From assembly GCA_051294905.1 (NCBI GenBank), contig CM119371.1:4900001-4964000 (forward strand): a stretch of DNA of 64,000 bases. Direction: 5' to 3'. Of the stretch, positions 12,610 through 58,898 are shown in pieces (the first letter of the stretch is position 1; each line of letters starts with the position of its first letter). The notes under the pieces were generated by a model, which was not told where the DNA came from, made no database searches, and saw nothing but the letters and a program-made list of their open reading frames with translations. The stretch is from Botryllus schlosseri. Taxonomy: Eukaryota. The position numbers and the translations under genes are program-made.

Positions 12610-12646
12610 AACTCTTGAAAAGAGGCACCCGAAAAGTCTTCGAGTT
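12610..12646 (+). ncRNA. Candidate minimal type I hammerhead ribozyme (U3-A8 variant) in the PLE pseudo-LTR; mirror copy at 11083-11119 minus
   Basis: AACTC-TTGAAAA-GAGGCACCC-GAA-AAG-T-CTT-C-GAGTT, followed by AATAAA. Stem I AACTC/GAGTT; core UUGAAAA; short stem II; GAAA; minimal stem III AAG/CUU; UC cleavage site. Confidence 0.7.
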
Positions 12647-18332: not shown

Positions 18333-19141
18333 CTGCAAAATGAAATATCGTACATTACCGTGCTGGCATCAGACTTATACAAACGACTGGATGTTTAAAC
18401 TGCACAACTAAATCAAAACGAATGACATTTGAAAATCAGTGACTAACGAAAACACGACGCAATGAATTTGATTCCGAAGCAACTCATTCATTATATTTTT
18501 CGGAATCAGATTAGCTTTCCACATTTACATTTGTAAAAATTACTGAAGAATCAGACAGACAGAACTACCACTATACAGGCTAAACTAAGCACTTACTAGC
18601 TATAGCAATAGCTGTGAGATCTTCACACAGACGAAAACGGACCACAACGATATTCGAGAAATGTAGAAAGCTTGTCAAGAAAACATATGTACATCAATAC
18701 TCAAAAAATGTAGAACAATAGTTATCTCTTTCATATTGGCTAGTGTCAATGCAATAGGTTGCATGAGTATCATAAAATGTACGTGAAACATATGTGGGCT
18801 CATTCAGTAGGCCAATGATAGAGATGTAGTAATACGTTCACTCTTCAAGGCAATCACTTGGCACTGCTAGCAGCGAAACAATGTTGAGGCAGCTGCACCA
18901 TGCACGATTCGAATCACTCAGGTACTCGATCATGTCCAGCTGCAGTTGTCGAGTTGAAATATACATAATTCGGCAACTCTATAAATTTGCAAGTCATTCA
19001 GATTCCATCAGTCACCAAGTATGCCTTCCTACATTAGCACATTGGTGATTGATCGGGTTCTGGGCAAAAATAAGGACGTCATTTCGAATTCTTTCTACCT
19101 GAGCTTGCAGTTAGTCTTCTTAGTAAATGCTTTTCCACACA

Positions 19142-19566: not shown

Positions 19567-19611
19567 TATATCAAAATAATGAATTTTAGTGCCAGAATGC
19601 ATATCCATATG

Positions 19612-21657
19612 TTACTTGAGGTGGCCCTTCATAGTAAAAGCTTTCCCACATATATCAGAAACATGATTTCGGATGCCAGCATGCATTTCCATATGACGCT
19701 TGAGGTTACCCTTCTGAGTGAAGGCTTTGCCACATATAGCACATGTATGATTTTTGATTCCAGCATGCTTATCCATATGCAACTTGAGGGTACCCTTCTG
19801 AGTGAATGCTTTACGACATATAGCACATGTATGATTTTTGATTCCAGCATGCTTATCCATATGACGCTTGAGATAATCCTTAATAGTGAATGCTTTACCA
19901 CATATAGCACATGTATGATTTTTTATTCCAACATGCTTATCCATATGACTCTTGAGGTTACCCTTCTCAGTGAATGCTTTACCACATATAGCACATGTAT
20001 GATTTTTGATTCCAGCATGCTTATCCTTATGCAACTTGAGGGTACACTTCTGAGTGAATGCTTTACCACATATAGCACATGTATGATTTTTGATTCCAGC
20101 ATGCTTATCCATATGACGCTTGAGATAATCCTCAATAGTGAATGCTTTCCCACATATATCACAAACATGATTTCGGATGCCAGCATGCATTTCCATATGA
20201 CGCTTGAGATAATCCTCAATAGTGAATGCTTTCCCACATATATCACAAACATGATTTCGGATGCCAGCATGTATTTCCATATGACACTTGAGGTTCCCCT
20301 TCTGAGTGAAGGCTTTGCCACATATAGCACATGTATGATTTTTGATTCCAGCATGCTTATCCATATGCAACTTGAGGGTACCCTTCTGAGTGAACACTTT
20401 ACCACATATAGCACATACATGATTTTTGCCTCCAGCATGCTTATCCATATGCAACTTGAGGGTACCCTTCCAAGTGAATGCTTTACCACATATATCACAA
20501 ACATGATTTCGGATGCCAGCATGCATATCCATATGACGCTTGAGGGTACCCTTCTCAGTGAATGCTTTACCACATATAGCACATGTTTGATTTTTGAATC
20601 CAGCATGCTTATGCATATGCAACTTGAGGGTACCCTTCCAAGTGAATGCTTCACCACATATAGCACATGCATGATTTTTGCTTCCAGCATGCTTATCCAT
20701 ATGCAACTTGAGGGTACCCTTTCGAGTGAATGCTTTACCACATATAGCACATGTATGATTTTTGATTCCAACATGCTTATCCATATGACGCTTGAGGTTA
20801 CCCTCCTCAGTGAATGCTTTACCACATATAGCACATGCATGATTTTTGATTCCAGCATGCTTATCCATATGCAACTTGAGGGTACCCTTCCAAGTGAATG
20901 CTTTACCACATATACCACATGCATGATTTTTGCCTCCAGCATGCTTATCCATATGCAACTTGAGGGTACCCTTCCGAGTGAATGCTTTACCACATATAGC
21001 ACATGTATGATTTTTGATTCCAACATGCTTATCCATATGACGCTTGAGATGATCCTTCATAGTGAATGCTTTCCCACATATATCACAAACATGATTTCGG
21101 ATGCCAGCATGCATTTCCATATGACGCTTGAGGGTACCCTTCTGAGTGAAGGCTTTGCCACATATAGCACATGTAGGATTTTTGATTCCAGCATGCTTAT
21201 CCATATGCAACTTGAGGGTACCCTTCTGAGTGAACACTTCACCACATATAGCACATGCATGATTTTTGCCTCCAGCATGCTTATCCATATGCAACTTGAG
21301 GGTACTCTTCCGAGTGAATGCTTTACCACATATAGCACATGTATGATTTTTGATTCCAGCATGCTTATCCATATGCATCTTGTGGTGACTCTTCTTAGTG
21401 AATGATTTACCACATACATCACATTCATGATTTCTGATTCCAGCATGCACATCCATATGACGCTTGAGGGCACCCTGCTGTGAGAATGCTTCCCCACATA
21501 CATCACATTCAATATTTTTGATGCCAGCATGCATATTCATTTGATGCTTGAGGTTACTATTCCCTGTAAATGCTTTCCAATATATATCGAATCGTAGTTC
21601 TTTCAGGCCGTGGTCAATAGTTGATACTGGACTCACAGCAGGCTTTTCTTCATGACA
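19612..21657 (-). CDS. C2H2 zinc-finger array exon (22 intact tandem fingers, 84-bp repeat, HAGIKNH-type linker)
   Basis: 674-aa open frame of CxxCGKAFTxKxxLKxHMDKH units. In-frame splice acceptor cttttctctag| at 21659-21658, so the GTG start in the ORF track is probably not real. The stop falls inside finger 23 and degenerate repeats continue beyond it. Confidence 0.9.
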   Translation of the reverse strand, partial: CHEEKPAVSPVSTIDHGLKELRFDIYWKAFTGNSNLKHQMNMHAGIKNIECDVCGEAFSQQGALKRHMDVHAGIRNHECDVCGKSFTKKSHHKMHMDKHAGIKNHTCAICGKAFTRKSTLKLHMDKHAGGKNHACAICGEVFTQKGTLKLHMDKHAGIKNPTCAICGKAFTQKGTLKRHMEMHAGIRNHVCDICGKAFTMKDHLKRHMDKHVGIKNHTCAICGKAFTRKGTLKLHMDKHAGGKNHACGICGKAFTWKGTLKLHMDKHAGIKNHACAICGKAFTEEGNLKRHMDKHVGIKNHTCAICGKAFTRKGTLKLHMDKHAGSKNHACAICGEAFTWKGTLKLHMHKHAGFKNQTCAICGKAFTEKGTLKRHMDMHAGIRNHVCDICGKAFTWKGTLKLHMDKHAGGKNHVCAICGKVFTQKGTLKLHMDKHAGIKNHTCAICGKAFTQKGNLKCHMEIHAGIRNHVCDICGKAFTIEDYLKRHMEMHAGIRNHVCDICGKAFTIEDYLKRHMDKHAGIKNHTCAICGKAFTQKCTLKLHKDKHAGIKNHTCAICGKAFTEKGNLKSHMDKHVGIKNHTCAICGKAFTIKDYLKRHMDKHAGIKNHTCAICRKAFTQKGTLKLHMDKHAGIKNHTCAICGKAFTQKGNLKRHMEMHAGIRNHVSDICGKAFTMKGHLK

Positions 21658-22295
21658 CTAGAGAAAAGACCCACAGATTTTCAGCATTTCAGCATATAGA
21701 CTTAGTTCAATTATAGTACGGCCACATCTGCAATGCATAAAAGTGTGGAGCTACTTTAAACCAAGAGCATTATAAGATTGTAGCCATAAAAGTAGTAGTA
21801 CATAATACAAAACTATTAATAGCATGGAATGACTTCATCAATGAGAGTGTAAAAAATCATTATATTACATTTTAATGTAGTCTTAATGTTTAATGTAGTC
21901 GGATATCTTCATGAGAACTATTGTTATATCGAAAGTTTCGATCATTTCAGTAACAAACCATTCATAACACGAGAAAAAACACAACGCTGAGTGACAATGG
22001 CGCATATTTACAAATGAATTACGGAATTTCTCCAAGAACCATCAAAAGATGTAACTGTGACCATGAGCATTGAGCGGCTTCAATGAATATAAGTTTCACA
22101 TTAACAGTACTATTTTTACTTATATATAGGTTGAAAAGAAAAAATTTCCTGCTAGTTTGTAGCTTGTCGTTCCTGTCAGAAGCACAGCGTCACCACAACA
22201 CCTATGGTACGTTATAAGCAAGGGGCGGGCAACTTCTCTAGTCGGCGGAACGGATATAGGAAAATAAAGTACTTGGCGGGCCGGATTGCTGTAAC

Positions 22296-24068
22296 CAGTG
22301 CTTTTCAACCTTTTTGAGCTCCATTCACACTTTTTTTTGTAAAATAAATTTAATTCGCACAAATTATCGGGTGTTGTTATACAAAAAGAAGATGAAGATA
22401 CCTAACAACATTTTGTTGAGATGTGCAACAAATTGGCTACTGTATCTTAAGCTATCAATTGTCTCATTAAAAAGGCAACTTTTTCGCTCGTTTTGATTTT
22501 AACTATTTCACTAAAATCCTCCTCGACCAAACAAGTTGTTGGGTTTTGTACATGAACTAGTCTACTAGTGCTTGGATGGCCAGGTCCTAAAATATGTTCT
22601 GCACTCCTATCAAAAATGCAGCGTATCTTTGGCGAGTGAAAAGTGGTTGCTGGCAGAAATCGCTTTTGAGAGCTGACACAAAGGTCCCGGAGGCTCCAGG
22701 CTGTCGAAAGGGCGAAAAATCCACGTTTGTGTTGGGGCTTTTGCCTCATGTCTTGGAACATTAGGTGCAAAACGATCAAGGAGAGTATAGGCAAATTGAT
22801 TAGAGCTCGCTACCTTCTGATACGTCGCTCCAACTTCTGTATCGCGAGTATATGCAAAGAGCAAATGAACTCACGATACTGTGTGTTCTGCTTTTTAGAT
22901 CAATCCAACTTAAGAATTCATCATAGTTTAATTACGGTAAAGCAGCTTTTAGAGTATCACCAAAATCCTAATTTTTGTGACATCTTGCGAACCGAGCATC
23001 ACCCATGAAAAGGAATTCATTACAGTTGTATGCTACGATTTTACGGGCATGTATGGCATACAGAACGCGCGCAACACAATTCTGCCGAACACACCTCTAC
23101 AAAACATGTCTGACGCACGCGATTTTAAATTGGGGCGAATGAAATTCATCTAATTGTCGCAGTTGTACTAATTGCTACGGATCATACACATATCCAAAGG
23201 TTTGGCCATCCAGCGTCGGTCGTTTTTGGACCAAGGTTTTGTCGCCGCTTATGTTTCTGGCCCCGCATCTTATCAGCGGTTTGTTGGTTAAAGCGTTACG
23301 TCTTCACGTGCCCCGACGCAAAAAGGGTTGGCTTCGAAATGAATGAGTCTCATAGGCCTGAACTCGCTCGTTTCACACCCCTACACTAGTTCTTCCCAAC
23401 GGTCTTCCTCCATGTTTTCAGGAAAAAACAGTCTGACAAATCTTATCATGAATTATCATGATGAAGCCATATTTTCTGCGTGTCTCGCTCATTGGCTGTA
23501 GTAGCCTACCCAACACAGTGATCTTGGACATGTAAAAAACTATTGCAAGATTTTTTGCAATAAATTCAACAAATATTACATGCATATTAGCAGATAGCTC
23601 TGGCACTGTGTCGACCAAAAATTACACCCTTTGCTGTCCATAATTAACCCTTGAAGGGGATAAAATTTACGTTACACTAACTCTCAAATGTGAGTTTGTA
23701 ATGATAGTCCTTTTTAGCCTGTCGCAAGCTCAGACGGGTTGATATACTGCTTGTCTCCCACTACACCAGCTTCCAAACCAGGCTTTTGGTTACATGATAA
23801 TTATAGCGTGAAAATATTAATTCACCACGGCTTGGTGGTGCGTCGCAAGTGAAACAAGTTTACAATTGCGTCGCCACTACAAAAGCTACACTCCCCTTGA
23901 ATTTCCTATTAGGCTTATTCTACGTTACAAAAATTAGGAATTATTCACGATTTTCATTCGCACATTATACGGATTTTCATTTGCACTATTCGCACCACCT
24001 TCGTCATTCGCACTGCAATTTTTTTCATTCGCACTAGTGCGAACCGTCTCACAGGTTGAAAAGCACTG
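22296..24068. mobile_element. hAT element nested in 22220-26031
   Basis: Perfect 16-bp TIR CAGTGCTTTTCAACCT; perfect 8-bp TSD GCTGTAAC at 22288-22295 and 24069-24076. Confidence 0.92.
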
Positions 24069-24225
24069 GCTGTAACGATACATTACTCGCCCATTTATCC
24101 ACATATAAAAGGAATAAATCGTATTTATCGAATGTATTGTAACGACAGCAATGTCACTTCAAAGCTATTTCTCTCTGATAATGAGCAAGACAATTTGGAT
24201 TTGAGAATATATCATTGCCACACAG

Positions 24226-25396
24226 CAGTGGTCTGGAACCTATGGCTCGCGAGCCAAATATGGCTCTTTTGGGGATAAGATATGTGTCTTTGCCAAATAT
24301 TAATTTTTTTACTGAATTGCTCAATGTTGCAGCGACTTGTTAGTAAATTTTCATCACGATCCGAAGAATTATTCCCGTGGCAGTATAAACATGTCTTTGA
24401 GAGGTAAAGGCAACACCGTCTGCAGGTTTAGTAGCTCGAACTCTTTTCAAAATCCTCAAATTTAAGTTACTGTCGCGCCGGCGACCAATATCACCCGCGA
24501 ATTCGATGTAGCCTACCCGACTCGAAATCTTGAATTGCGTGATACGTTGATTGATCCAAGAGAATAACAGACATGGCGACACCAACATGACGCAGTTTTC
24601 AAATACACATTGTCTTCCTGATGTACGGCGTGACATGAACTGTCGTGGACGTGACATTCACAATTACAAACTCGATTTACAAACAACGTTCTTGATTGGC
24701 AAGTAGCTGTACCGGCGATAAATAGGCGTGTAGCGCCACGTTATATGTTACGGCTTTGAGAATTGAGAAGTCGATCAGTATTTGAATTTTCGGAATCAGT
24801 GCCACAGTTACATTGGATTTTAATATCAGTTATAAAAAATTCCAAGCGATTTACGATGAATTGCGTTATCAATGGTGAGGCATGGCCCCTCTGTGCCTTA
24901 CCTCTCGTTTCGCGCTTTATTTTCGATTAGTAAAATGCAAATTGTGGGAATTTGAGAGAAAAATGTATAAAATCTAGTCTTTCATGAACATCAATAGAAA
25001 ATACCAATAATAATTGAACGTTTCAAAATCTTCGTTAACAGCTTAGATTGGATAGGCCTATATATAGATTGCTGTAGTGACCATGTTTGGCTCCCCCTAC
25101 GCCTGTGATCATGGGTTCTCGCATTTATAAGGAGTGTCAAGGCGAACCTACGTTCTCATAATTCAAATTTTGCATTCTCAAGTAAGGCAACCATCATGAT
25201 AAGTTCTAGTTTTTACAGAGAAAATGTGGTGCACACGACGAATCCCGTGTAGAGAGTGCGAATTAATACTACCATGACATCAGAAATTTCCAATTGCGAC
25301 GTAATATCTGATTGACATGCATGGCTTTTTGAGAGGTAAAATGGGAAAAAATAAGGCCAATATGGCCCTTCAGACAAAAAAGGTTCCCGACCACTG
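24226..25396. mobile_element. Second hAT element nested in 22220-26031
   Basis: TIR CAGTGGTC(T/G)GGAACCT; TSD CCACACAG (24218-24225) vs CCATATAG (25397-25404), two transitions apart; subterminal ATGGCTC-like motifs. Confidence 0.82.
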
Positions 25397-26299
25397 CCAT
25401 ATAGACACCCCCATGTCTGCTCTCTGATCAATCAACACGCGGTGCTATCCCTAATTAAGATTTCAAGGTGTTCGATAAGCCCGGTACCCTAAATTTACCA
25501 AGATATCAATTCATTAGGGTTTAGAAGGTGACGAGATAGCATCGTTGTTCAACTGTGTGGCCTAATTAATCTCGATATTGAATTCATGCGACCCGCGTCC
25601 TCTACGAATTTTGAAAAGTGGCCAGCGACCCGTTTTAAGTTGGCGACCCCTGGCAAAAGCGGTGTGTTGCAAAAGCCTAGAAGTCGGCGGTTTGGAATCA
25701 AAAACAAGAAATATCAGCCTGGTGTAAATGATCATTGTAGTCAACAAACAGCATGATTACCACAAATGACAATAGGATTGAATACATCGTAAATGCCGAT
25801 AATGCAAGTCTTCTCGCCTCGACGAACTTACGCGTAAGCTCAACTCTTGTACGCTGCGCAGTGCGCACATGCGCATATGATAACGTACAGTCACTAAAAT
25901 TTGACCTAGTAAGCAAGTAGTGGGGGAATTCGGCTAACAACAGGAACCACGGGCCACATTGTCATGTAAGCAGGAAAACTGTCCGCGGGCCGGACAAAAT
26001 CCCTTCACGGGCCGTATGTTGCCCGCTCCTGTTATAAGCTGTCTCAACACACATTACTGCAAGAATAACAATCATGATAGTCAGTGGATTCATTAATCGA
26101 CAACTGAATAATTAAGGTCGAATTGCACCCAATTCATAGCCAATCCTATACATAAAATAAAAATTCAGTCACTGATTATGCCAGTAATAAAATTCTAAAC
26201 TAATTTCCGAAATATTTCCCCGCTCTGATCAGTGTTGGGATGACTCGAGTCAGACTCTAGTCAACTTTTTCGTATGACTTGAATTGGAGCTTCAGAAAT

Positions 26300-26560
26300 G
26301 CGGATTGGTGTTTTGTGGCATATACACAGATTAATGATATACATATGCTGCTGGACAAGGACGGTGCATGCAGATAGAGCCTTTTACGGCATTCTAAGTC
26401 TTGCACCAACCCTCCATGCTATCCCAGTATAGCATGAGCACCAAGCAGGGAAGTCATGGATACCAGTGTTACTAATCGGGTCTTTGGTCTGACTCGGCCA
26501 AGGATCAAACCCACGACCTACCGAATAAGAAAACGGACGCTTCACCATTACGCTATATTG
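26300..26560 (-). mobile_element. tRNA-derived SINE relic (5' head deleted in the twin at about 56280-56470)
   Basis: Plus strand ...gtctttggtctgactcggccaaggatcaaacccacgacctaccg...ggacgcttcaccattacgcta is the reverse complement of a tRNA-like head with A/B-box-like motifs. Recognised by pattern only. Confidence 0.5.
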
Positions 26561-26792
26561 TCGGTTAACCTCGTGACTCGGAGCAGAATTTAGTAGTCAA
26601 TTTCAAGTCATCAAATAAGCGATGTACCATGGGCAAGTTGGGATTGTTCGCGATACGCTGGTGTCACTTGTGAGAGCGACCAGTCATTCACTGCCAGTCA
26701 TTCACTGATTGTAGGTTTCTCCGATCCTTCATTGGTACACAACTAGGAAATTGACCACAAACGAAATGATCACAGCTTATGTTGTCGTAATA

Positions 26793-27634
26793 CAGTGGTT
26801 CTCAACCGATTGTCCGCAAAGAATGTTCAGATAGTCCGCGAATCCTCCAAATTTGCAAAATGGTTGAAAACCAAAATTGTATTTTTTTAATTAGTGAAAT
26901 ATTTTCGCTCCAGAACTGTTCAAACTTCAGGACTGACATAAACAGAAATACAGTCTTAGATGAAATATTCTACTAGGGAAACGCATTTTAGTAACCAATA
27001 GTCTACTGATACAAAGATATTGCTGTTTAGAGAGAAATTTTTCAATCTAATTTTTTTAATGTACCCAGAATTCAAAGAACAACATTTGTAAATATTGGAC
27101 AATTATGTATGAGGGTATGCATTACAAATGTCAGAAAATTTGCTAAATTATAATGGAACGAGTCATAACCGATATTACAGAATAACTTCATATTGACTTG
27201 CTAGATAAAAGTGAATAGGCTGGAGGTTAGATGTTCTGTTTCTCAATGTTGATGCCGTATATATCAGACCAAAATTGTCTTCTGAAACGCTGCGGTTAAT
27301 TATTACATTCGCCATCTCCTATCACTGTGGAAATGTATTTTTGGCACTCATGTCAAATCGACGACGTGGATTTTCCAGCACGACAGCGTAGTCAAAGAAA
27401 TGTAGCTACAGAATTCGCTACATTAGGTCCTCCCAATTTGTACATCAATAGTATGTTGATATTTTCTGGAAAAGTCATTTGGTCGATCTTTAGTTGCCTA
27501 CAGTTAACATTTGCAAATGGTATATGATGATTGCACGATATTTGAGGTAAATTTGAACTAATAATCGTGGTAGGGGTTCACGAGGGTCCGTGGCGGTCTG
27601 AAAGGAGTCAAGACAAAAAGCTCGAGAACCACTG
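26793..27634. mobile_element. Older hAT-type non-autonomous element present in both arms (twin about 55327-56167)
   Basis: TIR CAGTGGTTCTC / GAGAACCACTG; TSD degenerate (tcgtaata / atctaata). Confidence 0.65.
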
Positions 27635-28559
27635 ATCTAATAGGAGCGTATCTTTGTTTCTTAGGCCGCTCAAGTGCTTACCTTATGTAGTGCTCACCTT
27701 TACCAACTTTCTTGTATGATTTAAATCCAATGTATATAGTTTATGCTTTTAAATCCTCATGGATATGTAGCTGAGTAGGGTATTGTACCATATCGAGGCT
27801 TCGTATTGGATCCTCTATGTTGGCTGATAATAACAGAGTGGCTATACAGTTACTCAAGTATTATTTACCAGTCCCGCGTGTTGGTGAGCGATACAACGCC
27901 ATTTTGTATGTATAGTCAACTTTATATTCGCTATTCGATTCAAGATAAATGTTCATTTTGGTCAATCAATCTGTCTTTCACACAGTCAGCAAAATGTAAT
28001 GACTTTTCAGCAACACTCATACTTCAGCAATTCAATTTGACTTGAACCATGACCTGAATCGCGACTTGACTCGAGTAACCTCCAAAAAACGAGTGACTTG
28101 AATTGACTCGAGTCACCTTCGAAAATCGATTGACACGACTTGACTCGAGTCAAAATTTGCAATGACTCGAGATGACTCATGACATGAAGGTAGTGACTTG
28201 ACCCCAACACTGGCTCAAATACAGATTCTAATCTAATCTGTAAAAGGTTTGTATGCTCTCATTTTATTTCTTATCTGCCGTCTGGTTTTATTGAAACTGT
28301 ACTGTACCGTGTGAATCGAGCCAGGATTACTGTACACATATTTCCATAAGTATGAGAATGAGCTCTGATTTGATATGAGATTAAATTGATTCAACTACAA
28401 AGTTTTCACGAATTCAGTATCAGTAACTTCAAGTCTAATCTAATTTGGAAATTTGAAAAATGTTAGCTAGCTAACTTTAAAAAAACTGAAAGCCGTCTAG
28501 TTGTTCAAGTCTGCCCTAAACCCATTACAACACAATTAATTTTAACATGTACACAGTAC

Positions 28560-28704
28560 ACTGGAAACACGTATTGGTGATTGTCATATTGTTGTGGATA
28601 GAAAAAGACCCAAAGGTGGTGAATTGATCCCCACACTGGCTACAATTGACGGCAGGACTAAACTTGAAGATTTTAGCACATACTGCACACAGAGTGGACA
28701 CTGC
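28560..28704 (-). CDS. Possible upstream exon of the zinc-finger gene (degenerate C2H2-like motifs); twin at 54253-about 54395 plus
   Basis: ttgcag|AVSTLCAVCAKIFKFSPAVNCSQCGDQFTTFGSFSIHNNMT, on the same strand as the ZF exon in both arms. Donor site uncertain. Confidence 0.4.
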
Positions 28705-31700
28705 CTGCAAATCCTAGTTTTCAAATTGGTTCCCTTTTTATAGACCTCATTTCATTTTGAACTTCTGCAATCAAAACGAGATGGAAGAATTTTGCATGGA
28801 ATTTTACCATATTTATGAATATAGTTAATGAAATGCTATGTATATGACCTTTTGAATTCCCGGAACCATTCAATATGGTTTCAACAATTTTAATTCCAAT
28901 TTTAGACCTTTTAACGTGGTGCCCGCATGAGTTCTCTCATGCGTAATCAGTAGATATAAGTCGAGTATTAGGCTTCGAGTCAAGTTGGGGATTTGAGTAT
29001 CCTTCATTGTGACGACATAACAATACGAAAGATGTGTCAAGTTCAGATATGTACCATTTACGCGATCACGAAGTGTATAATGCCAGTTTTATATCACAAT
29101 AAAGATAGCTTGGTGTTTTTAGACCACAACCATTTCATTCAACTTTTGACAACAATTCATGTTTTCAATCCTTTCACAGAAGAAAATAGCATCGAAAATC
29201 GAATTCTGATTTGACAAGTTACATCTTAGTGGCGAGGATCATATGATTTCGAAACTCAGAAAAAAACAATCCCTTATTGTCCCAATCAATTCATTAAAAC
29301 CTGATGCCCACTAGGACACTACCCAGCCCTAGCAATTACTATTGTAGCGCTTTTCAGATCATCTTTGGAGCTTGGAAAAAATTAGAATCACGGGACCCAA
29401 ATATCGTTTTGGGTTTCACAAGGCGTAGTTTACTCTGCAAGACTGGAACTGTGCAATGATACAGGCTCATGAACTCGTTCAATCCAGTTTTAACGATGAA
29501 ATGTCCTATCGGAAATAGTATTATTTTTCATAATCCAACATTTCGTACCCTGCTACTTCTATGGGTTGGAGTTGATGAATATGCACCATTCAATATTTTT
29601 GTAGACAACCTACCAATTCCATGTGCGAGCCGATACAATTTAAATGAAATTTTTGATTGTAATTAAAAATCAATAATTTTTTACCATATTACTTTCCGCT
29701 TAACAAACTTGGCATTTTCATCAACTAGCCAGTAAAATTTGAAAACAAAATTGATTTTCAAACAACCCTAAAAGTCTGTCTACTTTACAAAGCCCAATTA
29801 TTATAACGCCGTAATACGAGCAGGGATGTTGGCAGTATCCCGACTAGATATCTTCTAGAACTGTAGTTCTTCAACTTTTAAAGACACACCTCCTCGGTCA
29901 ATATTAAAAACTTCCACCACCCACTAATCAAATCAAAAGGCAAGGCATTGTGAAAGCTATAACTCTTTTAGCAGTAGTTCTTGGCCTTTCCTAGCTACGA
30001 TAACTAGGCAAGCCCATACGATAATCTGCAGGCCTTAAGCAAACTACAAATTTTCGCCTAATTACGAAAACCAATATCCATCACATTGCACAACGGATGC
30101 ATTACTGTAGAATACTGGTGCGCAAAATTAACTGTGAATAAACAACAGCGTCAAAATTATTGAATGCTTTTCACAAAAATACAAAAAATATTAATGAAGA
30201 TTTACAGTAGTAATAACCCTACTAATTATAGATAGTAACAGGATAAGAAAGTGCTTGCATTTTAATAAGAGAAGTTCAGCTCATAATAGCTGATTGCTTT
30301 ACTTTCAACAAATTCGATCACCAATGTATGGCCGTAATATTATAACTCTTAGTAACGTATCAAGGAGTGTATGATTACATTATCATAATGGAAAAAATCA
30401 TCTCGCACTACTCAACTTGCATTATTGCAATTAATACTAAATTCGAATACAATAATGTAATCATTGTGCCCATCGGCACTGGTGACATTTTCAACAGTGA
30501 AAATATGAACATAGGAACCAACAATAAGACACCATATACAAGCAGCTCTCACAAATCATGTGACATTAACCAAAAACATCAGACAAACATCGATACTTCC
30601 AGGGATGCAAGCTTTATACGACAATAATCAGTCTGAAGATTGTTAAAATTAGCAAACTTATGCACATGCTGCAATACCTTCTTTGGTATACTCCGCACAC
30701 TGGAAAATGTTCCCCATGATTACCAACAATCAATGTTCCCCATGAGCAATTGAGCATGTCAACATTTATGGTTCTTGCGCGATATTCAAGTGTTCCCTAT
30801 TTTCATCTCTTTTGTCTTCACCTGGACATCTCTCTTAATCTATATGACAATTGAGTTTGCATTTGGCTAGTGAAATACAATGCTCGTTTTGAATGTGCAC
30901 AAACGATACATCATTTCCGATCGCTCAGACTGGAAAAAGTGGTTGTTTTCAGCAATAAGTTGCGCGTGACAGAAGGGTTTCTTGCATAGAATAATCAAGT
31001 AATTAGGCAAAAATTTCTGCATGACGCTGCCATCAATTCCATTCTGGTCAATCGCCAAAACAAAAAAGTGACAGTAGGCCCTATCAGATATTTCATTCGC
31101 GTACTATAGTCATGGAGATTTTGGGAACGCCGATTGGTGGTGATCATGGGGATCACTTTCCAATGTGTAACTAAAGACGTACCGAACAAGTGGTGCAGAA
31201 TGTCGGATAACCTTTTCGAAGATATATGTTTATCCAAACTCTATTGCAGGCCCTTTTCAAGATAGACATACGCATGGAAAAATCACCGTTCTCAGTCATA
31301 CTTGTACAGACTACTGAATTTTCAAATTGAGTAAACAAAACTCGAATTATTCACTTTTAGACACGCTAGAAAAGACTAGAACTAACTGCCTTCGCAACTA
31401 TGAATCACAAGTATAGATTCAATCTCGAATCGACTTCATATTTATCTTATTAGAATCGGCTTTCCGCATGAACAATGAACATCAGTGCAATTTTAAAATG
31501 GGAGGGGTCTTGACCCTCGAAAACTTCCCCTTAGCTGCTCAACCGTTACTAGTGATGATTCTGAGCTTGCAATTGTTATTAGTTGCAAGAACATCAGCCA
31601 ATAAAACACTGGCATCACAATTTACGTTAGATGACAATACGTTTTCTACTTCTAATTCAAGTTACAGTTTATCGGCAGCTAATTATATCTAACTCGAACT

Positions 31701-32644
31701 ATAACTATAACCTATTCAAAATCACGAACTAGAATTAGAAGTACTTGGGAATTTGACCAAAAACTAACAACTTAACTAAACTGAGCAGTGAGCACTGAGC
31801 AGTGAATATGAAAAGCAGAACACCTGAGGTCGGGCAGACCTTATGCAGTCATAGCGACACCTTAGGGTTGTACGGCGGCAAAAAAGTAGAAAGCAGAACT
31901 ACCTGGCAGGAAATATTATTTGTAATATTTATTTTTTCGTGAGATAATCATATGGTGTCGTTCTTTTGATGCACTGTTGACTATAGGTACCAATATTTTA
32001 TAGTGATGTATCAGACGTGTAATGAGGTAGATTTTCGTATTCTATGTTACTCTTACTGGGCAATAATTTTAGGTCATAATTATAAGGCGTGCTGATTAGC
32101 GCAAGAGTTCGTCATGTTAGTAAAGGTTGAAAACCACTGATCTAATATCAGTTTCGCAGATTAATAAATCTTTCATTCCACATCTTGCATGGTTATTAAC
32201 ACTAGCTTTTGTATGATCGACGAAATAAAAAAACTTTCGTCTGTTTTGTTGTCATTCGTTTACGGCTCATTGACCTCGGCCGCAATATAGATGGGTGATT
32301 CCCCTCTTGAGTAGATATTTGATTGCTCACTGGTCAGCGAAAGTATAGATTACTAACATCAGAAAGTTAGTAATCTATTGCAAAAGTATAATTCAGATTA
32401 CTGTTATTATAAAGAAGAAGCTATATACTTTATGACATAACCTTTTACCAGTGTCAAAGACTAATACCAATTATCCCACGCGACTTGTATTTCTCAATTC
32501 GCGAATTATCATCAAATTATCTCTCTGGACTAGACACGAGAAATTAGGATGTTACCGTCACCGCTCATGATCAGTTCCGCTATTATAATTCCATCTGTTT
32601 TACCTGAGGACCTCAAGTTAAGGTTCTGTGCAGACTTCTACAAA

Positions 32645-49462: not shown

Positions 49463-50741
49463 ACTTCGCCCAGACATTCATTCATTTGCTATCATTTAAT
49501 TTTTCTTCATCTTTTCAACTACAATTCGTTACAGATGGATGATACAGAGACAATGTAGGCATATACTTGTACCATGCGAGTTTTATCAGACCACTTGACT
49601 TCCAAGGCTGTATCGATCTCTCCTATCCGACACCAAATACTGTGCATGTGCAATGTGCATGCACATATTTTCTGTATGATCATTGCTGCTGTCCATTTGT
49701 TCTGTATTTCTGTTCGTATGAAAATAAAGACTCACAGTCTCTCTCAGTTGGTATTCGAATCAATACTGCGCAGCAACATCAAGTATAAGTACTCGTAGTA
49801 CAGCAGAGGTGACAATTCCGTCTTAGCTGTACAAGTTCACGTACAATTGGTTAGGTCAACGACGCTTGCATGAGTTCAGAAATAGGTGGACGCAGCAAGA
49901 ATCTCAGCGAATCGTTCGTATTCTGACTGCATCCGGTTATTTAACCATAGCACTTTGGAACTCTTCGTATGGCGCAAACATTCCCTCGGAGCTCCAATTA
50001 TGAGCATACAAATCAGTATCCTACTTGTTCTTACTTCATTAAGCGTAGGTGAAGATCTCTTGTAAAGGTAAAGGTGGGCGTCAAGTTCTGGTACTTTCAC
50101 GACAGCAATTTGCAATTATTAGTATGGCGTAAACTTTCCCTCGGAGCTATAATTATGAGCATACAAATCACTGATCAAATCAGTAAGAGTAACCATTCAA
50201 ATCAGTAACCAGAAATGCGAATGAATAATGTACAAAACCGAAACCTGTCAAAAACGCATACGGTCTCCATAGTAACGGGCCTACGTCACACGGTGCCGGA
50301 CGAATAGCCTGAGAAAATTATTCGTCCGGTAACGGACGAGTAGCCACCGCCTTTTTTATTTCATCGATCATACAAAAGCTAATGTTAATAACCATGCAAG
50401 ATGTGGAATGATAAATTTAATAATCTCCGAAACTGATATTAGATCAGTGGTTTTCAACCTTTACTAACATGACGAACTCTTGCGCTAATCAGCAAGCCTT
50501 CTATGGCCGAAAATTATTGCCCAGTAAGAGTATCATAGAATACGAAAATCTACCTCATTATACGCCTGACACATCACTGTAAAATATTGTTCCTCAAGTC
50601 AACAGTGCATCAAAAGAACGACACCCTATGATTGTCTCACGAAAAAAATATTAGAAAGAATATTTCCTGCCAGGCAGTTCTGCTTCCTACTTTTTTGCCG
50701 CCGTACGACCCTAAGGTGTCGCTATGACTCCATAAGGTCTG

Positions 50742-51150
50742 CAGAGATGAGCATGGATTAGGATTAGGTTTTGAAAAAACAGGATTTGTGAAATTTTGTC
50801 GGATTTGGATTGGATTTGGATTAGACATTATTTTCAGAACGGATTAGGATTTGGATTGAATTCACCTATTTTCTGGGAGATTGAAATGTCGTGTGGCGAA
50901 TGGCGACAAACTTTATTTAGATCAGGTAATGATGTACTTATGGTTACTAAGTTATCGTGAATCAAGTGAATCGTTTGTTGTGAAAGAAAATTTTCGAATC
51001 CCTCCATTGCATAAATTAGATTTTTTTCTGAATTTCCAGCTGGAATCGGATTAGGATTGGACATGGACTTGAATTTGAAAAAGATTTGGATTTGAAGGTT
51101 CGGATTTGGATTGTATTAGGACATAGAAATTTCAAATCCGCTCATCTCTG
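50742..51150. mobile_element. hAT MITE with GGATT(A/T) subterminal arrays, absent from the left twin
   Basis: TIR CAGAGATGAGC; perfect 8-bp TSD AAGGTCTG at 50734-50741 and 51151-51158; single empty site at about 31835-31842. Confidence 0.9.
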
Positions 51151-54100
51151 AAGGTCTGCCCAATGATTGGGTATGCGAGACCTCAGGACTCAGGTGTTCT
51201 GCTTTTCATATTCACTGCTCAGTGCTCAGTTTAGTTTAGTTGTTAGTTGTAGGTCGAATTTTCAAGTAGTTCAAATTCTATTTCGTGATTTTGAATAGTT
51301 TATAGTTATAGTTAGAGAAAATTAGCTGCCGATAAACTGAAACTTGAATCAGAAGTCAGAAGTAGAAAACGTATTGTCATCTAACGTAAATTGTGATGCC
51401 AGTGTTTTATTGGGTGATGTTCTTGCAACTAATAACAATTACAAGCTCAGAATCATCACTAGTAACGGTTGAGCAGCTAAGGGGTGGTTTTCGATGGTCA
51501 AAACCCATCCCATTTCAAACTTGCACTGATGTTCATTGTTCATGCAGAAAGCCGATTCTAATAAGATAAATATGAAGTCGATTCAAGATTGAATCTATAC
51601 TTGTGATTCATAGTTGCGAAGGCAGTTAGTTCTAGTCTTTTCTGGCGTGTCTAAAAGTGAATAATTCGAGTTTTGTTTACTCAATTTGAAAATTCAGTAG
51701 TTTGTACAAGTATCACTGCGAACGGTGCTTTTTCCAGGCATATGTCTATCTTGAAAAGGGCCTGCAATAGAGTTTGGATAAATATATATCTCCGAAAAGG
51801 TTATCTGACATTCTGCAGCACTTGTTCGGTACGCATTTACACATTGGAAAGTGATCCCCATGATCAACACCAATCGGCGTTCCCAAAAACTCCATGACTA
51901 CGTACGCGAGAGTAAGCGAATGAAATATCTGACACTGTCACATTTTTGTTTTGATGATCGGCCAGAGTGGAATTGGTGGCAACGTCACACACAACTTTTC
52001 CTGTGATTACTTGATTATTCTACGCAAGAAACCCTTCTGTCACGCGCAACTTATTGCTGAAAACAACCACTTTTTCCATTCTGGGCGTACGGAAATGATG
52101 TATTGTTTGTGCACATTCAAAAGGGGCATTGTATTTCACTAGCCAAATGCAACTCAATTGTCATTCGATTAAGAGAGATATCCAAGAGATGAAAATAAGG
52201 AACACTTGAATATTGCGCAAAAACCATAAATGTTGACATGCTCAATTGCTCATGGGGAACATTGATTGTTGGTAATCATGGGGAACATTTTCCAGTGTGC
52301 GGAGAATACCAAAGAAGGTATTGCAGCATGTGCATAAGTTCGCTAATTTTAACAATCTTCAGACTGATTATTTTCGTATAAAGCTTGCCTCCCTGGAAGT
52401 ATTGATGTTTGTCTAATGTTTTTGGTTATGGTCACATTATGATTTGTGAGAGCTGCTTGTATATGGTGTCTTATCGTTGGTTCCTATATGTTCATATTTT
52501 CACTGTTGAAAAATTTCACTAGTGCCGATGGGTACAATGGTTACATTACTGTATTCGAATTTTAGTATTAATTGCAATAATTCAAGTAGAGTAGTGAGAG
52601 ATGATTTTTTTCAAGTACGGTACTGTAATGTAATCTTACACTCCTTGATAAGATACTAAGAGTTATATTCTTACTGCCATACATCGGTGATCGAATTTGT
52701 TGGAAGTAAAGCAAATTTCTCTTATTAAAATACAAACTCTTTCTTGTCCTGTTTCAATCTTTTTGTATTTTTGTGAAAAACATTCGATAATTTTGACGCT
52801 GTTGTATATGCACAGTTGATTTTGCGCACCAGTATTCTATAGTAATGCATCAGTTGTGCAATGTGATGGATTTTGGTTTCTGTAATTTCGAAAATTTGTA
52901 GTTTGCTGAAGGCCTGCTGATTATCGTATGGGCTTGCCTAGTTATCGTAGTTAGGAAAGGCCAAGAACTACTGCTAAAACAGTTATAGCTTTCACAATGC
53001 CTTGCCGTTTGATTTGATAAGTGGGTGGTGGAAGTTTTTAATATTGACCGAGGAGGTGTGTCTTAAAAAGTTGAAGAACTACTGTTCTAGAAAATATATA
53101 TTCGGTATACTGCCAACGTTCCTGCTCGTATTACAGTGCTATAATAGTTGGGCTTTGTAAAGTAGACAGACTTTTGGGGTTGTTTGAAAATCAATTTTGT
53201 TTTCAAATCTTACTGGCTAGTTGATGAATATGCCAAGTTTGTTAAGCGGAAACTAATATGGTAGAAAATTATTGATTTTTAACAACAATCAAAAATTTCA
53301 TTGAAATTGTATCGGCTCCCACATGGAATTGTTAGGTTGTCTACAAAAATATTGAATGATGCATATTCATCAACTCCAACCCATAGAAGTAGTAGTAGTA
53401 GAAGTATGGTACGAAATGTTGGATTATGAAAAATAATACTATTTCCGATAGGACATTTCATCGTTAAAACTGGATTGAACGAGTTCATGAGCCTGTATCA
53501 TTGCACAGTTCCAGTCTTGCAGAGTTAACTACGCCTTGTGAAACCCAAAACGATATTTGGGTCCCGTGATTCTAATTTTTTGCAAGCTCCAAAGATGATC
53601 TGAAAAGCGCTACAATAGTAATTGCTAGGGCTGGGTAGTGTCCTAGTGGGCATCAGGTTTTAATGAATTGATTGGGACAATAAGGGATTGTTTTTTTCTG
53701 AGTTTCGAAATCATATGATCCTCGCCACTAATATGTAACTTGTCAAAGCAGAATTCGAGTTTCGATGCTATTTTCTTCTGTGAAAGGATTGAAAACATGA
53801 ATTGTTGTCAAAAGTTGAATGAAATGGTTGTGGTCTAAAAACACCAAGCTATCTTTATTGTGATATAAAACTGGCAGTATACACTTCGTGATCGCGTAAA
53901 TGGTACATATCTGAACTTGACACATCTTTCGTATTGTTATGTCGTCACAATGAAGGATACTCAAATCCCCAACTTGACTCGAAGCCTAATACTCGATTTA
54001 TATCTACTGATTACGCATGGGAGAACTCATGCGGGCACCACGTTAAAAGGTCTAAAATTGGAATCAAAATTGTTGAAACCATATTGAATGGTTCCGGGAA

Positions 54101-57100
54101 TTCAAAAGGTCATATACATAGCATTTCATTAACTATATTCATAAATATGGTAAAATTCCATGCAAAATTCTTCCATCTCGTTTTGATTGCAGAAGTTCAA
54201 AATGAAATGAGGTCTATAAAAAGGGAACCAATTTGAAAACTAGGATTTGCAGGCAGTGTCCACTCTGTGTGCAGTATGTGCTAAAATCTTCAAGTTTAGT
54301 CCTGACATCAATTGTAGCCAGTGTGGGGATCAATTCACCACCTTTGGGTCTTTTTCTATCCACAACAATATGACCATCACCAATACGTGTTTCCAGTGTA
54401 CATGTTAAAATTAATTGTGTTGTAATGGGTTTAGGGCAGACTTGAACAACTAGACGGCTTTCAGCTTTTATAAAGTTAGCTAGCTAACATTTTTCAAATT
54501 TCCAAATTAGATTAGGCTTGAAGTTGCTGATACTGAATTCGTGAAAACTTTGTAGTTGAATCAATTTAATCTCATATCAAATCAGAGTTCATTCTCATAC
54601 TTATGGAAATATGTGTACAGTAATCCTGGCTCGATTCACACGGTACAGTACAGTTTCAATAAAACCAGACAGCAGATAAGAAATAAAATGAGAGCACACA
54701 AACCTTTTACAGATTAGATTAGAATCTGTATTTGAGCCAGTGTTGCGGTCAAGTCACTACCTTCATGTCATGAGTCATCTCGAGTCATTGCAAATTTTGA
54801 CTCGAGTCAAGTCGTGTCAATCGATTTTTGAAGGTGACTCGAGTTAATTCAAGTCACTCGTTTTTTGGAGGTTACTCGAGTCAAGTCGCGATTCAAGTCA
54901 TGGTTCAAGTCAAATTGAATTGCTGAAGTATGAGTGTTGCTGAAAAGTCATTACATTTTGCTGACTGTGTGAAAGACAGATTGATTGACCAAAATGAACA
55001 TTTATCTTGAATCGAATAGCGAATATAAAGTTGACTATACATACAAAATGGCGTTGTATCGCTCACCAACACGCGGGACTGGTAAATAATACTTGAGTAA
55101 CTGTATATCCACATGCTCTACAGTCTGTTATTATCAGCCAACATAGAGGATCCAATACGAAGCCTCGATATGGTACAATACCCTACTCAGCTACATATCC
55201 GTGAGAATTTAAAAGCATAAACTATATACATTGGATTTAAATCATACAAGAAAGTTGGTAAAGGTGAGCACTACATAAGGTAAGCACTTGAGCGACCTAA
55301 GAAACAAAGATACGCTCCTATTAGATCAGTGGTTCCCAAGCTTTTTGTCTTCGCCGGCCCCTTTAGGACCGCCACGGACCCTCGTGGACCCCTACCCCGA
55401 TTATTAGTTCATATTTACCACAAATATCGTGCAACCGTCATATACCATTTGCAAATGTTAACTGTAGGCAACCAAAGATCGACCAAATGACTTTTCCAGA
55501 AAATAACAACATACTATTGATGTACAAATTGGGAGGACCTAATGTAGCGAATTCTGTAGCTGCATTTCTTTGACTACGCTGTCGTGCTGGAAAATCCACG
55601 TCATCGATTTGACATGAGTGCCAAAAATACATTTCCACAGTGATAGGAGATGGCGAATGTAATAATTAACCGCAGCGTTTCAGAAGACAATTTTGGTCTG
55701 ATATATACGGCATCAACATTGAGAAACAGAACATCTAACGTCCAGCCTATTCACTTTCATCTAGCAGGTCAATATGAAGTTATTCTGGAATATCGGTTAT
55801 GACTCGTTCCATTATAATTTAGCAAATTTTCTGACATTTGTAATGCATACCCTCATAATTGTCCAATATTTACAAATGTTGTTCTTTGAATTCTGGGTAC
55901 ATTAAAAAAATTAGATTGAAAAATTCTCTCTAAACAGCAATATCTTTGTATCAGTAGACTATTGGTTACTAAAATGCGTTTCCCTAGTAGAATATTTCAT
56001 CTAATACTGTATTTCTGGTTATGTCAGTCCTGAAGTTTGAACAGTTCTGGAGCGAAAATATTTCACTAATTAAAAAAATACAAATTTGGTTTTCAACCAT
56101 TTTGCAAATTTGGAGGATTCGCAGACTATCTGAACATGCTTTGCGGACAATCGGTTGAGAACCACTGTATTACGACAACATAAGCTGTGATCATTTCGTT
56201 TGTGGTCAATTTCCTAGTTGTGTACCAATGAAGGATCGGAGAAACCTACAATCAGTGAATGACTGGCAGTGAATGACCGAGTCAGACCAAAGACCCGATT
56301 AGTAACACTGGTATCCATGACTTCCCTGCTTGGTGCTCATGCTATACTGGGATAGCATGGAGGGTTGATGCAAGACTTACAATGCCGTAAAAGGCTATAT
56401 CTGCACGCACCGTCCTCGTCCAGCGGCATATGTATATCATAAGTCGGTGTATATGCCACAAAACAGCAATCAACACCAATCCGCATTTCTGAAGCTCCGA
56501 TTCAAGTCATACAAAAAAGTTGACTAGAGTCTGACTCGAGTCATCCCAACACTGATCAGAGCGGGGAAATATTTCGGAAATTAGTTCACAATTTGATTAC
56601 CGGCCTAATCAGTGTAATTAGATAGCTATGATTGTCTAGTTGTCCTTGTCCGGTTAAGTGATAGGATATCGTAGGATAGGGTATACTTCTGGAGTTGGGT
56701 TGGCGTAAAATTAAGATCGGGGTAAGGGTTACTGCTGCTTCCACAATACACTAAACTTAAACCACTCAGGAACACCATGAATGTTGACATAGTCACATGG
56801 AACCGCGATTAGTGATGGTCATGTTGTTGTACATTTGTTATTGGCGTGATTGAAGCTGTGCTCAATGAAAAGTGATACATAATCTTCAGAGATGAATTGT
56901 TATACCGTACACCTGAATTTTTATTTTATGTAGACGGTTGGCTATGAATTTGGTGCAATTCAACCCTAATTATTCAGTTGTCCAATAATGACTCCACTAA
57001 CTATCATGATTGTTGTTCTTGCAGTAATGTGTATTGAGACAGCTTATAGCGTACCATAGGTGTTTTGGTGACGCTGTGCTTCTGACAGGAACGACCAGCT

Positions 57101-57581
57101 ACAAACAGTTAATGTGAACCTTATTACTGACAAAACTACTGCAGGGCATATTCATTGAAGCCGCTCAATGTTCATGGTCACAGGTACATCTTTTAATGGT
57201 TCTTGGAAAATTTCCGTAATTCATTTGTAAATATGCGCCATTGTCACTCAGCGTTGTGTTTTGTCTCGTGTTATGAATGGTTTGTTACTAAAATGATCGA
57301 AACTTTCGATATAACAATAGTTCTCTTGAAGATATCCGACTACATTAAACAATAAGACTACATTACAATGTAATATAATGATTTTTTACACTCTCATTGA
57401 TGAAGTCATTTCCATGCTATTAATAGTTTTGTATGTTGTACTATATCTTGTTATGGCTAAAATCTTATAATGCTCTTAGTTTAAAGTAGTTCCACACTTT
57501 CATGCATTGCAGGTGTGGCGTACTATAATTGAACTAAGTTTATATGCTGAAATGCGGAAAATCTGTGGGTCTTTTCTTTAG

Positions 57582-58898
57582 TGTCATAAAGAAAAGCCTG
57601 CTGTGAATCCAGTATCAACTATTGACCACGGCCTGAAAGAACTCCGATTCGATATATATTGTAAAGCATTTACAGGGAATAGTAACCTCAAGCATCAAAT
57701 GGATATGCATGCTGGCATCAAAAATGTTGAATGTGATGTATGTGGTAAAGCATTCTCGCAGCAGGGTGCCCTCAAGCGTCATATGCATGTGCATGCTAGA
57801 ATCAGGAATCATGAATGTGATGTATGTGGCAAAGCATTCACTAAGAACAGTCACCTCAAGATGCACATGGATGAGCATGCTGGAATCAAAAATCATACAT
57901 GTGCTATATGTGGTAAAGCATTCACTCGGAAGGGTACCCTCAAGTTGCATATGGATAAGCATGCTGGAATAAAAAATCACACATGTGCTCTATGTGGCAA
58001 AGCATTCACTGAGAAGGGTACCCTCAAGCTTCATATGGATATGCATGCTGGCATCCTAAATCATATTTGTGATATATGTGGGAAAGCATTCACTCGGGAG
58101 GGTACCCTCAAGCATCATATGGATATGCATGCTGGCATCCGAAATCATGTTTGTGATATATGTGGGAAAGCATTCACTTTGAAGGGTCACCTCAAGGGTC
58201 ATATGGATAAGCATGCTGGAATCAAAAATCATACATGTGCTATATGTGGCAAAGCATTCACTCGGAAGGGTACCCTCAAGTTGCATATGGATAAGCATGC
58301 TGGAATAAAAAATCATACATGTGCTCTATGTGGCAAAGCATTCACTGAGAAGGGTACCCTCAAGCTTCATATGGATATGCATGCTGGGATTAAAAATCAT
58401 ATTTGTGATATATGTGGGAAAGCATTCACTCGGGAGGGTACCCTCAAGCATCATATGGATATGCATGCTGGCATCCGAAATCATTTTTGTGATATATGTG
58501 GGAAAGCATTCACTTTGAAGGGTCACCTCAAGGGTCATATGGATAAGCATGTTGGAATCAAAAATCATACATGTGCTATATGTGGTAAAGCATTCACTCA
58601 GAAGGGTACCCTCAAGCTTCATATGGATAAACATGCTGGAATCGAAAATCATACATGTGCTCTATGTGGCAAAGCATTCACTCAGAAGGGTAACCTCAAG
58701 CGTCATATGGATAAGCATGCTGGAATCAAAAATCATACATGTGCTCTATGTGGCAAAGCATTCACTCAGAAGGGTAACCTCAAGTGTCATATGGATAAGC
58801 ATGTTGGAATCAAAAATCATACATGTGCTATATGTGGTAAAGCATTCACTCAGAAGGGTGCCCTCAAGTTGCATATGGATAAGCATGCTGGAATCTAA
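57582..58898 (+). CDS. Paralogous C2H2 zinc-finger array exon (14 fingers before first TAA)
   Basis: In-frame acceptor cttttctttag| at 57580-57581; 431-aa ORF; N-terminal region nearly identical to the minus-strand paralogue. Confidence 0.85.
   Translation, partial: CHKEKPAVNPVSTIDHGLKELRFDIYCKAFTGNSNLKHQMDMHAGIKNVECDVCGKAFSQQGALKRHMHVHARIRNHECDVCGKAFTKNSHLKMHMDEHAGIKNHTCAICGKAFTRKGTLKLHMDKHAGIKNHTCALCGKAFTEKGTLKLHMDMHAGILNHICDICGKAFTREGTLKHHMDMHAGIRNHVCDICGKAFTLKGHLKGHMDKHAGIKNHTCAICGKAFTRKGTLKLHMDKHAGIKNHTCALCGKAFTEKGTLKLHMDMHAGIKNHICDICGKAFTREGTLKHHMDMHAGIRNHFCDICGKAFTLKGHLKGHMDKHVGIKNHTCAICGKAFTQKGTLKLHMDKHAGIENHTCALCGKAFTQKGNLKRHMDKHAGIKNHTCALCGKAFTQKGNLKCHMDKHVGIKNHTCAICGKAFTQKGALKLHMDKHAGI

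What the first reader, a model, noticed from the sequence alone, without database searches (positions are those of the whole stretch)
19612..21657. PRDM9-like minisatellite zinc-finger array with diversity focused on DNA-contact residues
Seen: 22 fingers on a homogenised 84-bp unit. The framework CxxCGKAFT.K..LK.HMDKHAGIKNH is nearly fixed, while helix position -1 (R,Q,M,W,E,I), +3 (T,N,H,Y) and +6 (L,R,C,S) vary freely. The linker is AGIKNH rather than canonical TGEKPY. Known: concerted evolution with hypervariable -1/3/6 is the hallmark of PRDM9 and of TE-targeting ZF arrays. Inference: a fast-retargeting DNA-binding protein. No SET, KRAB or SSXRD domain is visible, so it is not called PRDM9.
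Basis: partly seen in the sequence, partly recalled or inferred. Interest (0 to 1): 0.72.

Follow-up and report, generated by a model that had tools for sequence, protein, structure and literature searches.

The report
Reshuffled zinc-finger array, not PRDM9
This is a real, rapidly reshuffled string of 22 DNA-binding zinc fingers in what is probably a sea-squirt zinc-finger gene cluster; it resembles PRDM9 only mildly, shows none of PRDM9's other domains nearby, and may be a gene in early decay.

Summary
The array is real: 22 intact C2H2 fingers on an 84-bp unit, behind a splice acceptor, closed by a broken 23rd finger. Contact positions are enriched for amino-acid change (3.4 times other free sites, p=0.0005), but the signature is moderate. 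They hold 0.36 of amino-acid diversity; 37 of 40 full-length PRDM9s score higher, and 8 of 142 control arrays score as high. Only 23% of finger pairs exceed 90% DNA identity. No PR/SET, KRAB or SSXRD match was found. Its flanks differ by 2-8%, yet finger order is not collinear after finger 3, which shows fast turnover. RNA depth is 0.2-2 with no splice joint listed. Recent private changes look neutral. Best reading: last exon of a lineage-specific poly-zinc-finger gene in a duplicating cluster, possibly decaying. Earlier scan notes already describe this cluster on neighbouring DNA.

The parts
19666..21513 (-). 22 intact C2H2 fingers on an 84-bp unit (array A); fingers 1-2 are older, diverged units and fingers 3-22 are the homogenised core
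21514..21657 (-). Exon leader of 48 codons with a degenerate finger lacking both cysteines; first in-frame Met at residue 40
21658..21682 (-). Pyrimidine tract and AG splice acceptor in phase 0 with the array, conserved in the sister copy
   Evidence: use in splicing not shown
19582..19665 (-). Broken finger 23 (first Cys replaced, stop at helix position +6, 19612-19614)
19102..19141 (-). Isolated finger remnant downstream of the stop
   Evidence: nhmmer E=0.00035
22220..26030 (.). 3.8-kb insertion in the presumed intron of copy A, absent from copy B; 9-bp direct repeat and short terminal inverted repeats (hAT-like, label recalled)
26033..32232 (-). Upstream block duplicated with the array (7.0% and 1.9% diverged from copy B in its two parts); presumed introns, 5' exons and promoter; no intact coding exon identified
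28528..28763 (-). Cys-rich, zinc-finger-like pseudo-exon behind an AG, interrupted by stops in both copies; no RNA reads
   Evidence: weak atlas lead, recognition below threshold
27682..27803 (-). Candidate small exon with two strong donor sites; stops in all three frames, so non-coding or decayed
   Evidence: inference from sequence
57582..59500 (+). Sister array B: 21 units, frame closed by a stop after finger 14 (58896-58898) and a second stop in unit 18
50352..57581 (+). Upstream block of copy B, inverted duplicate of 21658-32232

Best explanation
The stretch is the last exon of a lineage-specific poly-C2H2 zinc-finger gene in a large, actively duplicating cluster of a probable ascidian genome. 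Shown: the 84-bp units behave as a coding minisatellite. Units and part-units are copied and shuffled, so two copies only 2-8% apart in flanking DNA share just their first three fingers in order. Shown: zinc ligands and core residues were kept by selection while changes at helix -1, +2, +3 and +6 were tolerated or mildly favoured. Inferred: the product is, or recently was, a sequence-specific DNA-binding protein whose target changes as fingers are reshuffled, most plausibly a transcriptional regulator of repeats like other expanded poly-ZF families. It has no recognisable effector domain in the window. Whether this copy still works is open; copy B is truncated by stops.
For: Open 681-codon frame; 0 nonsynonymous steps at 15.3 sites in the six structural positions of fingers 3-22 against 12 synonymous steps at 16.6 sites. 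Contact sites 15 steps at 9.2 sites against 20 at 42.9 elsewhere, p=0.0005; copy B p=0.0009. 126 of 351 site pairs fail the four-gamete test. 17 of 20 A core units have their nearest neighbour in A and 14 of 17 B units in B. 6 of 13 contact triplets of A are shared with B. Conserved acceptor. Exon-bin RNA depth 0.17-2.06 in 4 of 4 runs and 0 in the adjacent intron bin. PLK1 pseudo-exons flank both copies, matching earlier notes on the cluster. Selection at -1/3/6 is general in expanded poly-ZF families (PMC2604467, PMC10547256; passages).
Against: No splice joint at 21658 among the 15 joints shown (9 not shown), and the few reads cannot be assigned to A, B or another paralog at a 90% cut-off. 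No intact upstream coding exon was found. Private single changes in A are 9 nonsynonymous to 2 synonymous, the neutral 4:1 ratio. A versus B over the first 132 codons gives pN/pS 0.63, not different from 1 (p=0.41). No DNA target was tested. The taxon rests on earlier scan notes, not on a close homolog (best identities 61% over 35% of a short query, otherwise 49% or less in long matches).
Confidence: 0.6

Rival explanations
1. Copy A is already a pseudogene. The contact-site pattern is inherited from a functional ancestor, and the array now turns over as a neutral minisatellite whose in-frame 84-bp steps keep the frame open.
For: Neutral 9:2 ratio of private changes; damage at both ends: Trp for the Cys kept in B in the leading unit, His for the core Leu in finger 2, broken finger 23; the 3' end of B has no counterpart in A; upstream Cys-rich exon broken in both copies; very low RNA and no joint; B carries two internal stops; the neighbourhood is kinase pseudo-exon debris.
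Against: None of the 11 private changes breaks a zinc ligand or makes a stop (expected fractions 0.127 and 0.038 per change, so not significant). All 22 fingers keep four ligands. Reads lie on the exon and not the adjacent intron. Low depth from 6-13% of four runs is weak evidence, and the tool may drop human-like reads.
Confidence: 0.27
2. It is a PRDM9 orthologue or truncated PRDM9 paralog whose KRAB, SSXRD and PR/SET exons lie outside the window or were lost, and it specifies or once specified recombination hotspots.
For: All fingers sit in one terminal exon with a homogenised 84-bp unit. Only 6 of 142 control arrays are as homogeneous, and two of these six are oyster PR/SET proteins. The share 0.36 is inside the PRDM9 range of 0.33-1.0.
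Against: No PR/SET match: best tblastn E-values of three oyster PR/SET N-termini were 0.36 or worse over both strands. No SET, PR, KRAB or SSXRD family in 88, 148 and 122 stop-free stretches, although the same scans found decayed kinase exons. The oyster PR/SET arrays have TGEKP linkers and shares of 0.47-0.53. Tunicate PRDM9 was reported without concerted evolution or positive selection (PMC2779102 passage).
Confidence: 0.05
3. The contact-site excess comes from neutral tolerance at surface helix positions plus CpG hypermutation in arginine codons, with no positive selection.
For: 17 of 30 CpGs in the core units fall in the -1 and +6 codons. Q and W at -1 and C and H at +6 are one CpG transition from the Arg codons. 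Synonymous steps are also high in contact codons (4 at 2.8 sites). Across 56 controls the share rises with homogenisation (Spearman 0.79). This rival is compatible with the best explanation and bears only on the selection step.
Against: Multi-base alleles at contact codons (I at -1, Y at +3, L at +6) are not CpG products. The contact nonsynonymous rate is 2.2 times the array-wide synonymous rate in A (p=0.04).
Confidence: 0.35
4. A and B are two haplotypes of one locus placed side by side by the assembly, so their different arrays are alleles.
For: A 2.9-kb part of the block differs by only 1.9%. An ascidian genome paper reports 3.63% heterozygosity (PMC12448946 passage), so alleles in this group can be that far apart.
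Against: Similarity stops at both ends of the block, other parts differ by 7.0-7.6%, the copies are inverted, and older inverted duplicates (84% over 4.6 kb) surround them.
Confidence: 0.05

Closest known systems
Lineage-specific poly-C2H2 zinc-finger expansions (KRAB-ZNF clusters, cyprinid FiNZ-ZNFs; PMC2604467 and PMC10547256, passages read)
   Same: Clustered, recently duplicated genes; fingers in one long exon; change focused on -1/3/6; truncated copies alongside.
   Different: No effector domain found; linker [AV]G[IG][KR]N, seen as the majority linker in 0 of 142 controls, of which 124 use TGEKP or TGERP; stronger within-gene homogenisation than 136 of 142 controls.
PRDM9 zinc-finger coding minisatellite (PMC2779102 passages; PMC5519329 section 25 and part 1 of section 10; PMC11703093 passages)
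   Same: 84-bp unit, terminal exon, unit shuffling, diversity enriched at contact residues.
   Different: No KRAB, SSXRD or PR/SET found. Share 0.36 against 0.69 (human) and 0.91 (mouse). 23% of finger pairs over 90% identical against all pairs in mouse. The value is close to rainbow trout PRDM9 alpha2.2 (0.367), which its authors judge to be no longer under Red Queen dynamics.
Ascidian zf-C2H2 expansions (PMC8122590, passages read)
   Same: The zf-C2H2 family is the one that changes most in size among tunicates.
   Different: The passages read give gene counts only, nothing on array homogenisation or contact-site diversity.

Membership tests
Poly-C2H2 zinc-finger genes | Tandem 28-residue C2H2 fingers with intact ligands | tested here: met
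   22 adjacent fingers; Pfam zf-C2H2 E=3e-116
Poly-C2H2 zinc-finger genes | Occurs in a cluster of recent duplicates | tested here: met
   Inverted sister copy in the window; wider cluster from earlier notes, not checked beyond the window
Poly-C2H2 zinc-finger genes | Canonical TGEKP-type linker (usual, not obligatory) | tested here: not met
   0 of 22 linkers
Poly-C2H2 zinc-finger genes | Spliced, expressed transcript | tested here: inconclusive
   Exon depth 0.17-2.06, intron 0, no joint listed, reads not assignable to a copy
PRDM9 | PR/SET domain with catalytic tyrosines upstream | tested here: not met
   No match in the 64-kb window by tblastn or in 358 upstream stop-free stretches by Pfam; exons beyond the window or under about 33 codons are not excluded
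PRDM9 | KRAB and SSXRD domains | tested here: not met
   No Pfam match; 864 non-finger segments of 308 fetched proteins, some KRAB-bearing, gave one weak hit elsewhere (E=0.006). Sensitivity for these short domains is limited
PRDM9 | Concerted evolution of the array | tested here: met
   Met at moderate strength: identity 0.847, 53 of 231 pairs over 90%, mosaic units
PRDM9 | Diversity concentrated at -1, 2, 3, 6 and top-ranked among the species' ZF genes | tested here: inconclusive
   Share 0.362, lower than 37 of 40 full-length PRDM9 rows; same-species rank not possible, no genome held
PRDM9 | High allelic diversity and meiotic expression | not testable with these tools
   Needs population genotyping and gonad RNA
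TE-silencing ZNFs (KRAB, FiNZ) | N-terminal repressor domain | tested here: not met
   None recognised; an unknown lineage-specific domain is not excluded
TE-silencing ZNFs (KRAB, FiNZ) | Binds and represses transposable elements | not tested
   No motif predictor or TE library was available

The most novel reading that the evidence does not exclude
An ascidian zinc-finger family with a non-canonical linker and no known effector domain has independently evolved PRDM9-style behaviour: its arrays are rebuilt within a few percent of neutral divergence under ongoing selection on contact residues, and it retargets DNA in an arms race with repeats or in hotspot choice, in a lineage whose own PRDM9 was reported not to evolve this way.
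Probability: 0.12. Interest if true: 0.65.

Novelty: new member of a known kind. Interest (0 to 1): 0.27.

Why it matters
As read here it is an ordinary but clean example of how poly-zinc-finger genes turn over outside vertebrates, with a built-in comparison: two young copies whose arrays have been rebuilt. It also shows that a PRDM9-like look can arise without PRDM9's other domains. If the novel case held, it would give an invertebrate-chordate system for testing what drives contact-site diversification without KRAB or SET.

Tried and rejected
No whole genome is held, so no same-species ranking or search for a separate PRDM9 was possible. Three protein searches found no close relative: 120 listed of 2869 hits, 44 of 50 short candidates, 150 listed of 130303; the two long lists are dominated by long generic arrays, so a close relative lower down is not excluded. 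Reads were laid only on 21340-32600, so fingers 4-23 and the 3' end were not examined. The atlas search of the 28528-28713 stretch gave zinc-finger-type neighbours at about 0.90 with recognition below the tool's threshold, a weak lead. A rough donor scan found 5 strong sites and no convincing phase-0 coding exon. Weak Pfam hits below their cut-offs (C1_1, DZR_2, fn1, PHD and others) were rejected as chance. The plus strand of 1-19500 and of 50400-57581 was not scanned with Pfam. The long frames on the opposite strand and in the shifted frame (19483-21405, 19923-21056) were rejected as by-products of the repeat. Pairwise pN/pS (0.53 against 0.41 at -1/3/6) was not relied on, because gene conversion breaks tree assumptions (PMC5519329 section 25). 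No structure or complex prediction was run. Six paper searches listed no description of this array or linker type; only listings were seen for most papers and the library is partial. No supplements were read; Supplementary file 3B of PMC5519329 holds the per-gene background values and may bear on the ranking. Scan look-ups by sequence and nearby place were empty.

Full report
Observation. The minus strand carries a stop-free frame at 19612-21657 (681 aa) over an 84-bp tandem array (23.4 copies, 85% matches). It holds 22 adjacent fingers with all four zinc ligands, a degenerate leading unit, and a 23rd finger with a lost Cys and the stop codon. A pyrimidine tract and AG precede the frame in phase 0, so it reads as a last exon. 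The residue before the first Cys is as variable as +3 and +6.

Strength of the PRDM9 signature. I used the published statistic, the share of amino-acid diversity at -1, 2, 3 and 6 (formula in PMC5519329 section 25; positions stated in PMC11703093 passages). Array A gives 0.362 and array B 0.35, against 0.143 if uniform. Of 41 full-length PRDM9 rows in Table 1, one has no value and 37 of the other 40 are higher. As a control I took the longest array of each fetched protein: 142 of 308 had 8 or more adjacent fingers and 166 were dropped. Their median share is 0.257; 8 of 142 reach A's value and 6 of 142 its finger identity of 0.737. These controls come from other species and were chosen by similarity, so they only place A in the upper tail. 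At DNA level 53 of 231 finger pairs exceed 90% identity and none is identical; in mouse Prdm9 all pairs exceed 90% (PMC2779102 passage).

Selection. Counting minimal steps between codon alleles in fingers 3-22, the six structural positions show 0 nonsynonymous steps, contact sites 15 at 9.2 sites, other sites 20 at 42.9 sites, and synonymous change 12 at 16.6 sites. The contact excess over other sites is firm (p=0.0005; copy B p=0.0009). The excess over synonymous change is borderline (ratio 2.2, p=0.04 uncorrected; B 1.5, p=0.31; pooled p=0.06). CpG sites concentrate in the -1 and +6 Arg codons (17 of 30) and can explain part of it. Against current function, changes seen once among the 37 core units are 9 nonsynonymous to 2 synonymous in A, the neutral ratio, though none hits a zinc ligand.

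The sister copy. A self-comparison shows the array with its upstream block duplicated in inverted orientation: 19730-32232 against 50352-59509. Flanks differ by 7.6%, 1.9% and 7.0% in three parts. Fingers 1-3 are each other's counterparts; after that the order is not collinear (distances 7, 6, 4, then 4-17 of 84). 17 of 20 A core units and 14 of 17 B core units have their nearest neighbour in their own array, and 126 of 351 site pairs fail the four-gamete test. The arrays were therefore rebuilt by unit copying and recombination after the duplication; unequal crossover and gene conversion are the inferred mechanisms. B has a stop after finger 14 and another in unit 18. A has a 3.8-kb insertion in its presumed intron.

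Upstream domains. tblastn with the N-terminal parts of three oyster PR/SET-finger proteins (domain confirmed) gave nothing better than E=0.36 on either strand, and 864 non-finger segments from 308 proteins gave one weak hit outside the arrays. Pfam scans of 88 and 148 minus-strand stretches upstream of A and 122 plus-strand stretches between the copies found no SET, PR, KRAB, SSXRD, BTB, ZAD or THAP family. The same method detected decayed kinase exons, which serves as a positive control. The only exon-like coding candidate in the duplicated block, 28528-28763, is Cys-rich and broken by stops in both copies. If the upstream exons are non-coding, translation from Met 40 would give fingers only (inference).

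Expression. Four bulk RNA runs from two studies, 6-13% of each read, gave depth 2.06, 0.17, 0.46 and 1.37 in the bin 21340-21715 and 0 in the next bin. No joint at the acceptor is among the 15 shown; 9 were not shown. The reads cannot be assigned to one copy, and the tool may drop human-like reads. This fits low expression of some family member and does not show a transcript of A.

Context. Earlier scan notes place zinc-finger genes with PLK1 debris 60 kb before, 89 kb after and 1.5 Mb after this window, and call other genes of the genome sea-squirt type. I confirmed the debris inside the window: one piece matches PLK1 (E=2.9e-7) and related pieces lie at 18 places. The taxon was not tested here. 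No close protein relative was listed.

Mechanism and comparison. Shown: minisatellite-type turnover, past purifying selection on the fold, enriched change at contact residues. Inferred: a DNA-binding regulator whose target shifts as fingers are reshuffled. A role against repeats follows from analogy with expanded poly-ZF families, where selection at -1, 3 and 6 is general (PMC2604467 passages) and fish FiNZ-ZNFs repress transposons (PMC10547256 passages); it was not tested. That non-canonical linkers can weaken DNA binding is recalled, not tested. The array works like the PRDM9 minisatellite in how it mutates, but it fails membership on domains. Tunicate PRDM9 itself was reported without concerted evolution (PMC2779102 passage), which is what gives the novel case its interest. 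Also read as passages: PMC8122590, PMC12448946, bioRxiv 10.64898/2026.09.07.749791.

Verdict. A real feature with a partly supported reading: a new member of the lineage-specific poly-ZF kind (confidence 0.6), with a pseudogene as the main rival (0.27) and PRDM9 unlikely (0.05). Interest 0.27.

Noticed in passing
window 1451-16866 (minus) and 35286-46145 (plus): Decayed PLK1-like kinase exon pieces at 18 places, 8 on the minus and 10 on the plus strand; agrees with earlier notes on neighbouring windows.
   Followed up: partly
window 11043-12686: A 604-bp inverted repeat at 99.5% identity around a 327-codon frame at 11309-12292 that looks like the end of a Penelope-type retroelement (label recalled; no Pfam match above cut-off).
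   Followed up: no
window 26228-26603: A short interspersed repeat drawing RNA depth of about 270-1860 from copies elsewhere; probably a tRNA-derived SINE (label recalled).
   Followed up: no
window 6065-10558 and 43982-48459: An older inverted duplication, 84% identical over 4.6 kb.
   Followed up: no
window 26683-29600 and 53330-56277: This part of the duplicated block is 1.9% diverged while its neighbours are 7.0-7.6%, which suggests later gene conversion between the inverted copies.
   Followed up: partly
window 32640-33127: Tandem repeat of 177 bp, 2.7 copies, 89% matches, between two copies of an exact 50-bp direct repeat at 32596 and 33769.
   Followed up: no
proteins P0009 and P0088: Oyster PR/SET zinc-finger proteins annotated as generic have contact shares of 0.47 and 0.53, so they look like PRDM9 orthologues.
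   Followed up: no
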